Source: a virus. Taken from it: a stretch of 64,000 bases of DNA. Positions 1 through 64,000 of the stretch are shown here, one piece after another. The notes beneath the pieces were generated by a model. It was not told the origin of the DNA and did no database searches. It saw only the letters and a program-made list of their open reading frames with translations. The stretch lies in the IMG/VR virus record IMGVR_UViG_3300045988_174402; one strand, written 5' to 3'. The position numbers were made by a program, and so were the translations under genes. How positions within the stretch are numbered: the first letter of the stretch is position 1; each line of letters begins with the position of its first letter.

Positions 1-636
1 TGTTTCATAAAATGGATCTCCTTCACTATTAAATTTTAGATCTCCTGCTTTATGTGAAACAGTTCTTCCATTTACTTCATGAGTTCCATCTTCATCTCAT
101 TGAGCTAATACAAGTGTAGGACGAGCTATAGCACCTAACCCACCTCATTCATTAGGTGTTCAATCCTCAAACTTACCAGTATCATAATTAAATATCTTAT
201 TTGTTTGTGCTACTTCACGTATCGACATAGTTGGATCAGAAGTTTCATATAGATTAACTATACCTCGACTTCTTCTTTCAGGATTAGAGAATTTAACTAA
301 TCTTGAACTAACATCCAGTACATCGCCGCCGAGAGGTGCAAAATAATCTGCAGGATCATATGTAAATGAATCCATAGCAGTACTTGCTAAATTAGCTTCA
401 TCTGCACGATTATATAAGTCTAAAACGTCTTTATAATATGTATCGAATTTTTGATTATCAAATTCTCCTCTATCGTTTTTAAACGCCTCTTGTATTTCTG
501 GTATACCTTTATAATATTCTCTATCTTTAACATTAGAGTTATCAGGAGTTATTCCTAAATTAACTAACTCTTGAACACTTTTGTCTGGCTGAAAAAATAA
601 TGCCGCCAGCCAATCATTTTTCTTCTGATCCATCAT
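1..636 (-). CDS. hypothetical virion-module protein, 3' end runs off the window
   Basis: ATG at 634-636 is preceded by in-frame TAA at 640-642. Track ORF 160..636 stops at TGA 160-162, but the same frame stays free of TAA/TAG down to position 1 (GKFED-W-TPNE-W-GGLGAIARPTLVLAQ-W-DEDG). Confidence 0.6.
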
Positions 637-639
637 ACT

Positions 640-2535
640 TTAAAAATTAGCTTTTATGCTTTGTTGTTGTTTTTTCAGATTTGCCTGATTATATATATCT
701 CTATATTCACTAGCACTTCCAATTTCATGATTAGATGCAACAGTTGCAAGTTTAGAATCATGCATAGGCATAAATATCATTCCTTTATACATTGAATTTT
801 TATTGCCATGAAATATTTTTCCAAAGAAGCCTGGCTTAAAGTTATCAACCTTTTTGTCTGATTTCTTTACTACATCTCCTCCATAATTTACATAAGTTGA
901 ATAGATATCAAATATTCTATCTTTATCTGGTCCATCAACATGTCATAACCAAGGAGAATTACTATCAAAGTCAATAGCTTTATCACTAGCATAACCTGAT
1001 AATCCAAAAAATACCATCATATCTTCAGGTCTGAATTTTCATCTATTAGTTTCAGTATCAAACTCTAAGTCTAGATCATATTCATGTAATTTTTCTATCA
1101 TTCTTTGTCTAGATACATTAGGATTATCTTCAATTCATTCCTCAAATTTTGTATATCGATCATATGCATCTAAGTCAGGCTTATAAACTCCCATTTGTTC
1201 TGCATCTCGATCTTTTGGAAGTCACATTCTACTAAGTGAACTAGAGCCATCTCACACAAGTCTATTTAAATCAATATCTGATATTCTTTGATCTCCAAAG
1301 AAAATAGAATTTTTATCAACAATATTACCTATTTCAGCCTTATCCAATACATTTTTTAATGTATTTTGAGTTACTTGTGTGCCATTCTTATCTTGTAATG
1401 GATAATCCCTAGTTACAATTTCTAACCCTCCTTTGGCATCAGATGTTGATAAAACTGCAATTTTAGGATCTACAACTCTACCTGCAGCAATAGTTTCTAG
1501 AGAGCTTCTATTAACATCTTTATCAGTTCCTCCAGAACTTCCACTGCCTGCTTTAGATGCAGTTGAATCATAATCTAAAGCTTGTGTATTTTCTACACTA
1601 TGATTTGTATGTTCAACTACAGCAATTTGTAGTAATCGTTTTACATCTTCAGGATTACTTGGATTAAAACCTTCAGCAGCTGCTTGAGCTCTTAAAACGT
1701 TTTTCATATTTTGTGGAAGAGTCTTATATAAATAATTAATAGCTAAATCAAGACTTTCTTTATCATGATATCCCTGATTAGATGTACTATTTGATTCTGT
1801 AACTTTATATATTCCATCTGGTCCATTAAATCCTAATAATTGTTCAAATCCTTTTTCAATTTTATTCTGATATTTAGAAGTATATCTATCAAACTGATTT
1901 GAGGATTTATTAGTTCCAAACGCTCCAATAGTAGCTTTTACATAATCTACTATAGATTTCATTCCAACTGTATTAGATAAATCTGTAAGGATACTATTAT
2001 TATATGCTAGTTCTGGACGTTCTTCTCGAAGATGAATTAATTGAGAATTAGTTAATGCTTGATATTTTTGTGGATTTTTATAATAAGTATCTGCAGATAT
2101 AGTCTTAATACTGCCGTCTTTATTATACACATATAAGCTACCTTCATTACTAATTGCAACTTCAGACCCAGATCCTTCTTTAATAATTTGTTCTGATGCA
2201 GTTTCATGTAATTCATTATTATGTTTAATTCTATTAGCTAAAGATTGTAATCTAATTAAATCAGACATATCATATTGATTACTCTGCCCAGATACAAATA
2301 ATTCACCTAAGTTTTGAGATTTTCTTAAAAAACTATTAGCTCTATCTAAGAAGTAATCTACATCATTAGGTAACCCATTCTCTTTAAGAACATTAATAAT
2401 TTCTTTTTGAATAAGTTGTTCTTCTTTATTTTCACTTGTTTTAGAGGTCTGAGTAGCAACTTGTGTAGGCTCTGCAGCATCTCTAAAAAAGGGGGTATAA
2501 CTAATACCCCCGTTTTGATATCTCTTTATCTTCAT
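640..2535 (-). CDS. hypothetical virion protein (631 aa) with N-terminal MKIKRYQNGG tag
   Basis: Track ORF 1252..2535 ends at TGA. The same frame continues to TAA at 640-642, and the 1896-nt length is divisible by 3. Confidence 0.65.
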
Positions 2536-2537
2536 AT

Positions 2538-62798: not shown

Positions 62799-62826
62799 GT
62801 ATTTATATATTTATTAATTTAAAAGT

Positions 62827-63144
62827 TTATTTTAAGTATATTACAAATACTCAAGTATAAACATCATCTGGTATATCAATTATGATGTCACAAATTGTGA
62901 CATCATCTATCTCTTCATGTTCTTCTTTTATTAGTTCCATAATTCCAATTACTTCCTTCATAGGACTAATAATAGAGTTTTCTATTCCCTTTGATCCGTT
63001 CTGTAAAACTGCATAGTACACATTTGAACCTTTAATAAAAGATACAGCTTTATTAGTGTAAAGTCCATATCCTTCTAATTCAATCTTTAGTGTATCAGGA
63101 TCTTGCAATTCTGTTACTACTTTGTTATATATTTTATTGTCCAT
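62827..63144 (-). CDS. hypothetical protein (105 aa)
   Basis: Track ORF 62851..63144 reads through TGA to TAA at 62827-62829. Confidence 0.55.
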
Positions 63145-63147
63145 ATG

Positions 63148-64000
63148 TTAATATTTTTTATAATATGGAGAAGATTCTCAATCTCTAGGTCCAACCTCTG
63201 CATCTTTTATTAAAGTTCTACCAAGTTTGTCAACTCGCTCTGGAAATCAATCATATTCTCCTAATGCCATTGCTCTTCTTCCTGAAGATCTTACTCCAGT
63301 TCAATTATCTTTTGAAGCATCGTGATTCATTTCTTTTATTAAAAGATTTGGATCAGTAACTCCATCAAGTAGCATTTTTCTTAACTTTGGGCTTCGTTTT
63401 TCAGAAAATTCAGTAATTCCATGGGTATTGTAGGATAACTCTGTTAGTGCTAACTGTATATTGGGATCTAAATTTTTAAAAGTGGGAAACTCCTTATTTA
63501 AGGCATCTCAATGTTTTTGCAGTTCACTTTCTAATAATTTTAAACCTTCAGATTGAGATATACCTGTTTCTCTATATTTATTGATTATATTTTTATCTGC
63601 AAATCCAAATCCAATTAATTCCTGATTATTTAAGTAATAAGGAAATTCTTTAAATCCTTCAAATCCTGATGTAAACTTAGTTGCTAAATCTTTAATAGTA
63701 GGAATGTATTTTTGTTTAGAAGGAATTTCGATTAATGGAGACTTTCAATTAGGGTCAAATGGTTTAAATTGCATTTGTTCTGGCAATACATTTCAAGGTT
63801 CTTGGTACTTAGGTATTTTTAATCCCAACTGAGCATATAATGTAGTATCTTTCTTTTTAGTAGGCGCTTGAGCTACATTATTAAATAAATAAAGTAAGAA
63901 ATCATCACTATATCTATTCAATAAATTATATGTATTCTCTTTATTATAATGTGGAGTAACTGTAGACTCTTCAGGTACAATTTTATATTCGGGATTAAAT
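63148..64000 (-). CDS. lysozyme-like (GH24-type) domain protein, 5' end outside the window
   Basis: Hand-translated with several TGA Trp codons. The segment IQLALTELSYNTHG...SPKLRKMLLDG...NWTGVRSSGRRAMALGEY matches the phage lysozyme pattern. TAA at 63148-63150. Confidence 0.5.

What the first reader, a model, noticed from the sequence alone, without database searches (positions are those of the whole stretch)
1..64000. TGA is decoded as a sense codon (Trp) across the window
The ORF track leaves kilobase-scale gaps (637-1251, 8979-9981, 11417-13003, 16797-18557, 40409-42563). In each gap one minus-strand frame has no TAA or TAG and only TGA. Every merged gene ends in TAA or TAG. Evidence inside the window points to Trp rather than Gly. 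In the shared fibre motif, TGA at 33565-33567 (EGA-W-EKIGTTDIDLSDYYTK) aligns with TGG-encoded Trp in paralogs (EM-W-DKLGGTIDLS, AA-W-DPLGGTIDLS). TGA also falls at Trp-typical positions: the intein B:12 Trp, the LAGLIDADG motif LGC-W-LGDG, W-LHID of the M15 lysin, and aligned AG[EA]-W and [FY]-W-AF in the two collagen-fibre paralogs. TGG is used as well. The lysin implies a host with peptidoglycan, so this resembles the code-4-type recoded phages known from metagenomes rather than a Mollicutes phage.
Basis: partly seen in the sequence, partly recalled or inferred. Interest (0 to 1): 0.8.

Follow-up and report, generated by a model that had tools for sequence, protein, structure and literature searches.

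The report
TGA read as tryptophan, crAss-like phage
This 64-kb stretch comes from a large crAss-like gut phage whose structural, packaging and lysis genes use the stop codon TGA as tryptophan; this is real but already described for this phage lineage, and the only open point is which molecule reads the TGA.

Summary
With TGA as a stop, a simple gene model covers 66.5% of the window in 89 short ORFs. With TGA as sense, it covers 93.3% in 59 genes that tile end to end, all ending in TAA or TAG. The curated 57-gene set has 155 in-frame TGA and 103 TGG.

TGA means Trp. In two relatives without in-frame TGA in the aligned genes, 25 of 43 aligned TGA positions are TGG-Trp; the rest are mostly Phe, Tyr, Leu or Ile, and none is Gly. 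In recoded relatives, TGA and TGG interchange at the same sites.

The window is a crAss-like phage of about 174 kb that fits the published Zeta group, where TGA-to-Trp recoding, introns and inteins are already reported.

Recoding is block-wise. About 55 kb just right of the window carries 26 tRNAs and a tmRNA and is nearly TGA-free.

No UCA-anticodon tRNA, release factor or TrpRS turned up in about 155 of 174 kb. The phage does encode an invariant tRNA-Trp(CCA). The decoder is therefore unresolved, a gap the literature already notes.

Verdict: correct reading, known phenomenon, low novelty.

The parts
1..64000 (.). Recoded block of a crAss-like phage genome. It has 155 in-frame TGA in 44 of 57 genes (27 of 32 genes of 200 aa or more), and no gene is terminated by TGA.
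2538..7151 (-). Gene of 1537 aa with 11 TGA and 15 TGG. It is fragmented under table 11.
11165..15952 (-). Virion structural protein of 1595 aa with 13 TGA and 6 TGG.
   Evidence: PHROG 15100, E=3e-18
15942..19205 (-). Gene of 1087 aa with 14 TGA and 4 TGG, the highest TGA count in the window.
26450..27859 (-). Major head protein of 469 aa with 0 TGA and 7 TGG. It is an exception that avoids TGA.
   Evidence: PHROG 11589; binomial p=0.0016
32116..34218 (-). Fibre protein. The TGA at 33565-33567 encodes the W of EGA-W-EKIGTTDIDLS, which is TGG in the paralogs at 36468-38069 and 38130-39290.
40420..42393 (-). Collagen-repeat fibre of 657 aa with 12 TGA and 7 TGG, including AGE-W at 42277-42279 and F-W-AF at 42112-42114.
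   Evidence: (DUF4988)
42399..45569 (-). Collagen-repeat fibre paralog of 1056 aa with 11 TGA and 17 TGG, including AGA-W at 45450-45452 and Y-W-AF at 45285-45287.
46506..49050 (-). Portal gene in two exons (47872-49050 and 46506-47549). The two halves are contiguous in relative L003.
47596..47905 (-). Group I intron interrupting the portal gene.
   Evidence: RF00028, 62 bits, E=2e-15; 78-nt core 94% identical to the intron at 31366-31585
49311..51620 (-). Large terminase of 769 aa with 10 TGA and 2 TGG. The last codon before TAA is TGA.
   Evidence: (PHROG 6681, E=5e-66)
55010..56938 (-). PD-(D/E)XK exonuclease carrying a LAGLIDADG intein (about 55361-56320). It has 6 TGA, including the W of LGC-W-LGDG at 55940-55942.
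   Evidence: (residues 16-206 and 527-642 nearly adjacent in L003)
59498..59968 (+). M15-like peptidase on the plus strand with 3 TGA and 0 TGG, including W-LHID at 59906-59908. Recoding therefore covers both transcription directions and the lysis genes.
63148..63921 (-). Lysozyme-like protein of 257 aa with 6 TGA and 0 TGG. It is the last recoded gene before the TGA-poor tRNA block to the right of the window.
31366..31585 (-). Group I intron splitting a small Gly-rich gene. It is not part of the recoding itself but belongs to the same genome style.
   Evidence: (92.3 bits)

Best explanation
The window is the virion, packaging and lysis part of a crAss-like phage of about 174 kb. Its features fit the published 'Zeta' group. 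In these genes UGA is translated as tryptophan.

Shown here:
- TGA is a sense codon. It stands where relatives have Trp and is interchangeable with TGG.
- It never needs to act as a terminator in this window.
- Use is block-wise. A block of about 55 kb to the right of the window is almost TGA-free, so a standard-code host can translate it. That block holds 26 tRNAs, a tmRNA, ClpP, an RNA ligase and other genes.
- TGA returns in the replication genes beyond that block and in a giant protein to the left of the window.

Inferred, following the published model for recoded phages:
- After infection the standard-code block is expressed first.
- A phage-induced change then lets ribosomes read UGA as Trp in competition with host RF2.
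- This permits synthesis of replication, virion and lysis proteins, so recoding acts as a gate on those genes.

The decoder is not identified. No UCA-anticodon tRNA was found in about 155 of 174 kb. My ranking of candidates:
- About 0.4: a phage tRNA that lies in the unexamined 20 kb or is too unusual for the detectors.
- About 0.3: the phage's own invariant tRNA-Trp(CCA) reads UGA through C:A pairing, helped by modification or high dosage. It has the U11-A24 state of the Hirsh suppressor.
- About 0.3: a host factor or some other mechanism.
For: Coding density rises from 66.5% to 93.3% and the median gene from 105 to 226 aa when TGA is sense.

The code-4 proteins match terminase, portal, head and virion families. 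The full-length code-4 TerL is present at 100% identity in public protein calls.

Alignment of the window's TGA positions:
- L003 and L007, relatives with no in-frame TGA in the aligned genes: TGG-Trp at 12 of 21 and 13 of 22. The rest are mostly Tyr, Phe, Leu or Ile, with single Asp and Arg, and no Gly.
- Three Crassvirales genomes: W 12, F 7, Y 5, much like the TGG control.
- Recoded relatives at 49-58% aa identity: TGA and TGG swap in both directions.

Trp content is 1.29% with TGA counted and 0.52% without.

The early block has 15 TGA against 73 TGG, versus 155 against 103 in the window (p=1e-12). TGA returns in the DnaB helicase and its neighbours and in a 2628-aa protein to the left of the window.

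Literature: Zeta-group crAss-like phages are 145-192 kb and use TGA as Trp or TAG as Gln, mostly in late genes. They carry many introns and inteins, and suppressor tRNAs do not always accompany recoding (PMC7886860). A clade of opal-recoded Zeta genomes of 173-177 kb has no detected suppressor in 4 of 5 members (PMC12386605). Only 35% of code-4 phages have a detectable UCA tRNA (bioRxiv 10.1101/2021.08.26.457843).
Against: No decoder was found. ARAGORN and Infernal report no UCA anticodon in the window or in the flanks examined. No RF or TrpRS family appeared among the listed hits for 28 early-block proteins.

Up to 14 TGA per essential gene requires very efficient decoding, which near-cognate reading by a CCA tRNA is not known to give.

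Temporal gating is inferred from gene content only; there are no expression data. The head protein, a late gene, has no TGA, so 'late genes are recoded' is not a complete rule.

Zeta-group membership rests on shared features and literature tables, not on a phylogeny built here.
Confidence: 0.93

Rival explanations
1. The phage infects a host that itself uses translation table 4 (a Mollicutes-like bacterium). TGA=Trp would then simply be the host's code, with no phage-driven switch.
For: TGA=Trp, about 31% GC and a tRNA set dominated by U34 anticodons resemble Mollicutes. PMC12386605 Table 1 lists Holdemanella and Faecalibacillus as putative hosts for this clade. From my own knowledge, not tested here, these Erysipelotrichaceae are relatives of Mollicutes.
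Against: The roughly 55-kb early block avoids TGA while using TGG: 15 against 73, versus 155 against 103 in the window (p=1e-12). A code-4 host would not select for that. The phage's own Trp tRNA has a CCA anticodon, not UCA. Peptidoglycan hydrolase-like genes are present. The protein matches are crAss-like.
Confidence: 0.03
2. TGA is a leaky terminator rather than a reassigned codon. Most ribosomes would stop, a minority would read through, and the TGAs would act as attenuators giving truncated and full-length products.
For: No cognate UCA tRNA was found. The head protein, presumably the most abundant virion protein, avoids TGA entirely with 0 of 7. Host RF2 is presumably still present.
Against: Essential single-copy genes carry 10-14 TGAs: TerL has 10, and the 1087-aa and 1595-aa virion proteins have 14 and 13. 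Even 50% readthrough per site would leave less than 0.1% full-length product. TGA makes up 60% of all Trp codons. In the window a +4 U was depleted after sense TGA, but recoded relatives did not reproduce this.
Confidence: 0.05
3. TGA encodes another amino acid: Gly as in table 25, Cys, or selenocysteine.
For: TGA=Gly is known in Gracilibacteria and Absconditabacteria and is reported for their phages (own knowledge). A tRNA-Gly(UCC) and a tRNA-Cys(GCA) are encoded by the phage.
Against: None of the 43 aligned TGA positions in L003 and L007 is Gly or Cys, and 25 are Trp. TGA and TGG interchange in recoded relatives. Rfam found no SECIS element in the window.
Confidence: 0.01
4. The in-frame TGAs are assembly or sequencing errors, or decay in a defective genome.
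For: None found.
Against: Only TGA interrupts the frames, never TAA or TAG. The same full-length code-4 TerL is seen in many independent assemblies at 99-100% identity, and contigs of about 173-179 kb carry the same genes. The TGA positions sit at conserved Trp sites.
Confidence: 0.01

Closest known systems
Opal-recoded Zeta-group crAss-like phages (Yutin et al. 2021, PMC7886860; clade of c815351, 3075_90106, ctddo16, ctvkg4 and ctPTU4 in PMC12386605 Table 1)
   Same: Genome of about 173-177 kb, about 30-33% GC and 23-25 tRNAs. TGA=Trp occurs in terminase, structural and some replication genes. Group I introns and inteins are numerous. A detectable suppressor tRNA is absent in most members. 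One relative contig fetched here (IMGVR_UViG_3300045988_171911) has exactly the length given for c815351, 173,322 bp.
   Different: Nothing substantive was found. I could not compare sequences directly with the named genomes, so identity with a particular listed genome is inferred.
Phage Lera / ct1yV3 (Zeta crAss-like, 'Echekvirus'; PMC12386605)
   Same: Opal suppression in TerL, structural and lysis genes, with Trp at the suppressed sites by homology and a large tRNA block.
   Different: Lera carries tRNA-SUP-TCA and tRNA-SUP-CTA. Here no UCA or CUA tRNA was found in about 89% of the genome. Lera also has diversity-generating retroelements, which were not searched for here.
TGA-recoded Jade and Agate phages (Borges et al., bioRxiv 10.1101/2021.08.26.457843)
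   Same: Standard-code early genes with TGA=Trp in structural and lysis modules, and the proposed gating of late and lysis genes.
   Different: These are different phage lineages. Jade carries a 'code-change module' of a UCA tRNA, TrpRS and RF1 next to its lysis cassette. None of these was found here (for the tRNA, for the proteins).
TAG-to-Gln recoded crAss-like phages (validated by metaproteomics, PMC9523058)
   Same: Same overall strategy in the same phage assemblage. Zeta relatives fetched here carry a CUA suppressor tRNA next to tRNA-Trp(CCA).
   Different: A different stop codon and amino acid are involved, and there the suppressor tRNA is readily detected.
UGA decoding by near-cognate tRNA-Trp(CCA): Hirsh G24A suppressor and 4-bp anticodon-stem tRNA-Trp (PMC13092985)
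   Same: The phage tRNA-Trp(CCA) has A24 paired with U11, the state of the G24A suppressor. It is the only Trp tRNA found in the phage.
   Different: Its anticodon stem has the canonical 5 bp, not 4, and position 9 is G, not C. Relatives from loci that show few in-frame TGA also have A24, so the feature does not track recoding.

Membership tests
Stop-codon-recoded phage, TGA to Trp (table-4-type) | Conserved phage genes are broken by in-frame TGA and restored to full length when TGA is read as sense. | tested here: met
   Density 66.5% to 93.3%. TerL, portal and virion proteins match PHROG families over their length. Full-length code-4 TerL is present in public calls.
Stop-codon-recoded phage, TGA to Trp (table-4-type) | TGA positions align with Trp in homologs. 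| tested here: met
   25 of 43 positions are TGG-Trp in L003 and L007, and none is Gly. Against Crassvirales the counts are W 12, F 7, Y 5. TGA and TGG swap in recoded relatives.
Stop-codon-recoded phage, TGA to Trp (table-4-type) | TGA is not used as a terminator in the recoded genes. | tested here: met
   All genes end in TAA or TAG and tile tightly. TGA is spread along genes. The only ambiguous case is the TGA-TAA at the end of TerL.
Stop-codon-recoded phage, TGA to Trp (table-4-type) | Part of the genome is compatible with the standard code, giving block-wise recoding. This is typical rather than obligatory. | tested here: met
   The early block has 15 TGA against 73 TGG, versus 155 against 103 in the window (p=1e-12).
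Stop-codon-recoded phage, TGA to Trp (table-4-type) | Phage-encoded suppressor tRNA with a UCA anticodon. This is frequent but not defining: 35% of code-4 phages have one. | tested here: inconclusive
   ARAGORN and Infernal found none in the window plus flanks, about 155 of 174 kb. About 20 kb was not examined.
Zeta-group crAss-like phages | Terminase, portal and major head proteins related to crAss-like phages. | tested here: met
   PHROG hits. In the 'phages' collection, TerL tblastn hits are mostly crAss-like, Bacteroides and Flavobacterium phage records at about 25-30% identity, with two unclassified gut phages at 41-47%.
Zeta-group crAss-like phages | Genome of 145-192 kb with a large tRNA block. 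| tested here: met
   Near-identical contigs are 173-179 kb. There are 26 tRNAs and a tmRNA.
Zeta-group crAss-like phages | High density of group I introns and inteins in core genes. | tested here: met
   Two group I introns in the window. An intein in the exonuclease. RNR interrupted by a GIY-YIG gene, consistent with an intron.
Zeta-group crAss-like phages | Placement inside the Zeta clade in a TerL phylogeny. | not tested
   No named Zeta reference sequences were available in the collections searched. Membership is inferred from the features above and from Table 1 of PMC12386605.
Table-25 recoding (TGA = Gly) | TGA aligns with Gly, and a tRNA-Gly(UCA) is present. | tested here: not met
   None of 43 positions is Gly. 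The phage tRNA-Gly has a UCC anticodon.
Phage of a code-4 host (Mollicutes) | TGA is used as Trp throughout, early genes included, with no need for peptidoglycan hydrolases. | tested here: not met
   The early block avoids TGA. M15-like and lysozyme-like hits lie just below Pfam's cut-off, and a glucosaminidase hit is strong.
Blastocrithidia/Zinderia-type UGA decoding by tRNA-Trp(CCA) | A 4-bp anticodon stem, with the 27-43 pair unpaired. | tested here: not met
   The phage tRNA-Trp(CCA) has five Watson-Crick pairs at 27-31/39-43, plus a possible G26-U44 pair.

The most novel reading that the evidence does not exclude
This clade of opal-recoded crAss-like phages has no UCA suppressor tRNA at all. 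It would decode its UGA codons, more than 150 in this window alone, through its own invariant tRNA-Trp(CCA). C34 would read both G and A through a phage-directed modification or edit of C34. This would parallel f5C or lysidine in other tRNAs, or the C-to-U editing of tRNA-Trp in trypanosome mitochondria (analogies from my own knowledge). RF2 might also be neutralised. That would be a new route to stop-codon reassignment in a virus.
Probability: 0.2. Interest if true: 0.75.

Novelty: already known. Interest (0 to 1): 0.3.

Why it matters
For annotation it matters a great deal. Under the default table 11, about a quarter of this window's coding sequence is lost and the terminase, portal, tail and lysis genes are shattered. 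Table 4 must be used for these blocks.

Biologically it is one more instance of a described strategy: stop-codon recoding that may gate replication, virion and lysis genes.

The unresolved part is how UGA is decoded efficiently, in a host that probably uses the standard code, without a recognisable UCA tRNA, release factor or TrpRS. This is a known open question for this lineage. This genome family is abundant in public gut metagenomes, which makes it a practical test case.

Tried and rejected
(1) +4 nucleotide context. In the window, U is depleted after sense TGA: 13% against 33% after TGG (p=6e-4). That would suggest selection against strong RF2 contexts. Relatives L008-L010 show the opposite trend (26% against 12%), so I rejected it as not reproducible.

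(2) Odd tRNA-like gene. It is conserved in the tRNA block (L015 13194-13264) and was considered as a hidden suppressor. Its anticodon arm has a 5-6 nt loop, no UCA, and varies between strains. Rejected.

(3) Extra Infernal-only tRNA (L061 18773-18844). It is tRNA-Gly(UCC), with compensatory stem changes in relatives. It is not a suppressor.

(4) Weak tRNA hit in L074 11679-11741. By my own reading of the sequence it is a degraded tRNA-Gly-like remnant without an acceptor stem.

(5) Tell-tale differences in tRNA-Trp(CCA). Recoded and non-recoded relatives both have U11-A24. The only notable change is A10-U25 instead of G10-C25. Inconclusive.

(6) Phyletic pattern of early-block enzymes (radical SAM, methyltransferase) against recoding. 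The sampling of relatives was too thin.

(7) Closing the genome circle. One homolog search returned only a 65% relative with no contig on record. The last search added 8.5 kb. About 20 kb remains unseen.

(8) Nucleotide search of the phage collection. Only a 48-nt match turned up, to a Bacillus phage, and it lies inside the group I intron.

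Full report
**Observation**

The window is 30.8% G+C. Nearly all genes from 1 to about 57.6 kb lie on the minus strand, followed by a plus-strand cluster at 57.8-60.8 kb and more minus-strand genes.

With the three standard stops, a greedy non-overlapping gene model gives 89 ORFs, 66.5% coding density and a median of 105 aa. 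With TGA as sense it gives 59 genes, 93.3% density and a median of 226 aa. The genes then tile with gaps or overlaps of a few bases. Examples are 640-2535 / 2538-7151 and 19207-20946 / 20948-21484 / 21487-21924. Treating TAG as sense gives no such gain.

In the curated set of 57 genes there are 155 in-frame TGA and 103 TGG, and no in-frame TAA or TAG. In the other two frames all three stops are frequent. Trp content is 0.52% from TGG alone and 1.29% with TGA added.

The statement that every gene ends in TAA or TAG is partly true by construction. It is backed by the tight tiling and by the spread of TGA along genes.

**Which amino acid**

Code-4 translations match the terminase large subunit (E=5e-66), portal, major head and virion-protein families.

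Two gut-phage records, MT835470.1 (L003) and MT835539.1 (L007), are about 40-48% identical in protein and have no in-frame TGA in the aligned genes. The window's TGA codons align to their TGG-Trp at 12 of 21 and 13 of 22 positions. The remainder are mostly Tyr, Phe, Leu or Ile, with single Asp and Arg. None is Gly and none sits at a C-terminus. The TGG-encoded Trp of the window behave the same way as a control.

Against three annotated Crassvirales genomes at about 30% identity, the counts are W 12, F 7 and Y 5.

In recoded relatives at 49-58% amino-acid identity (L008-L010), TGA and TGG replace each other in both directions. One example is 16 TGA-to-TGG and 5 TGG-to-TGA changes in L008.

TGA therefore means Trp. 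Gly (table 25), Cys, Sec and sequencing error are excluded.

**What the window is**

TerL finds crAss-like phages in the phage collection. The identical full-length code-4 TerL occurs in many public assemblies, on contigs up to about 173-175 kb. The metagenome scan found near-identical contigs of 173-179 kb.

The window has two group I introns. One at 31366-31585 splits a small gene. The other, at 47596-47905, splits the portal, whose halves are contiguous in L003. There is also a LAGLIDADG intein in a PD-(D/E)XK exonuclease.

These features match the 'Zeta' group of crAss-like phages: 145-192 kb, many introns and inteins, and TGA=Trp or TAG=Gln recoding (PMC7886860). More precisely they match a clade of opal-recoded genomes of 173-177 kb (PMC12386605, Table 1). 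Membership is inferred from features; I built no tree.

**Extent of recoding**

I walked outward through public contigs that are about 90-100% identical to the window or to the protein used as query at each step. About 155 of 174 kb was covered.

Immediately right of the window lies a block of about 55 kb. It holds 26 tRNA genes, a tmRNA, ClpP, an RNA ligase, a radical-SAM enzyme, AAA ATPases and other genes. There the plus-strand ORFs of 100 aa or more contain 15 TGA against 73 TGG, compared with 155 against 103 in the window (Fisher p=1e-12). Most of these genes have no TGA at all, either as sense or as stop.

Beyond that block TGA returns in replication genes, including the DnaB-type helicase and its neighbours. 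It also occurs in a 2628-aa protein left of the window.

So the window is almost wholly inside a recoded block, but the genome is not uniformly 'code 4'. This agrees with the published picture, and it argues for a standard-code host.

Within the window usage is heterogeneous (chi-square p=9e-4). The major head protein has 0 TGA in 7 Trp codons (p=0.0016). Yutin et al. report the same for a Zeta head gene.

**Mechanism**

The published model is that standard-code early genes are expressed first, and then a suppressor tRNA makes the recoded genes translatable. Some phages add an RF or a TrpRS.

Here neither ARAGORN nor Infernal finds a UCA anticodon in the window or in any flank examined. No RF or TrpRS domain appears among the listed hits for the early-block proteins.

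The phage does encode a tRNA-Trp with a CCA anticodon. Its sequence is identical in the 21 loci where ARAGORN found it. It has G73 and a U11-A24 pair, which is the state created by the Hirsh G24A UGA-suppressor mutation. Its anticodon stem has the normal 5 bp, unlike the 4-bp tRNA-Trp(CCA) shown to read UGA (PMC13092985). Relatives from loci with few in-frame TGA share A24.

Near-cognate reading alone seems too inefficient for genes with 10-14 TGAs. The decoder is therefore unresolved. The literature already notes this: suppressor tRNAs were not detected in 4 of 5 genomes of this clade or in 65% of code-4 phages. About 20 kb of the genome was not examined here.

**Verdict**

The phenomenon is already described for this lineage, so novelty is low. 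The only part of real interest is the missing decoder.

Noticed in passing
window 31366-31585 (-): Group I intron (Rfam RF00028, 92 bits). It splits a small Gly-rich gene: exon 1 encodes MEVVEKKEMVHKDVYENCGEKEYASKGVAGTGLGL..., and exon 2 runs into ORF 30680-31063. The only nucleotide match of the 24-kb stretch 20000-44000 in the phage collection is a 48-nt, 94% hit to Bacillus phage vB_BpuM-BpSp, and it lies inside this intron (31512-31559).
   Followed up: partly
window 47596-47905 (-): A second group I intron interrupts the portal gene. The whole-window Rfam scan missed it and it was found only in a local scan (62 bits). It shares a 78-nt core that is 94% identical with the intron at 31366-31585. 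The two portal halves are contiguous in relative L003.
   Followed up: yes
window about 55361-56320 (-), within gene 55010-56938: LAGLIDADG-type intein inside a PD-(D/E)XK exonuclease. The flanking exteins are nearly adjacent in relative L003, whereas L007 aligns across the whole protein and so seems to carry the intein too. The intein itself contains four TGA codons.
   Followed up: partly
window 23369-27859 (-): The major head protein (26450-27859) and two neighbouring genes use only TGG: 0 TGA in 12 Trp codons, against 60% TGA overall. This suggests the most abundant virion proteins avoid the recoded codon.
   Followed up: partly
window 29823-32150: Four of the window's five TAG-terminated genes sit in this 2.3-kb stretch around the first intron; the fifth is 7874-8515. 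All other genes end in TAA.
   Followed up: no
window 49311-49316 (-): TerL ends with TGA immediately followed by TAA. Whether the final Trp is translated, or the TGA is a relic stop, cannot be told from sequence.
   Followed up: no
L061 3999-4379 (about 20 kb right of the window end in related contigs): Phage-encoded tmRNA (Rfam 101 bits) with tag peptide ANNIFSRIINKVETALFGDIEGVALIAA, embedded in the tRNA block. It could relate to ribosome rescue when UGA stops are read through; this was not tested.
   Followed up: no
L112 9654-9741: In most strains the tRNA with anticodon UCU (Arg, AGA) is 88 nt long with a long variable arm, like a class II tRNA. In two strains (L121, L122) a normal 75-nt tRNA-Arg(UCU) takes its place.
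   Followed up: no
L015 13194-13264: A tRNA-like gene (Infernal 48.8 bits) conserved in many strains, with good acceptor, D and T arms. Its anticodon arm has a 5-6 nt loop and differs between strains, so it is unlikely to decode.
   Followed up: partly
L238 8079-11458: The ribonucleotide reductase large subunit is split into two ORFs by an insertion that carries a GIY-YIG endonuclease gene. This is consistent with a further intron, in the replication block.
   Followed up: no
L074 about 11180-12496 (IMGVR_UViG_3300045988_171911, 173,322 bp): This strain lacks the tRNA-Trp(CCA)/tRNA-Ala pair present in the others. Its length equals that of genome c815351, which PMC12386605 lists as the one clade member with a TCA suppressor. 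I found no UCA tRNA in the 62.6 kb of this contig that I held.
   Followed up: partly
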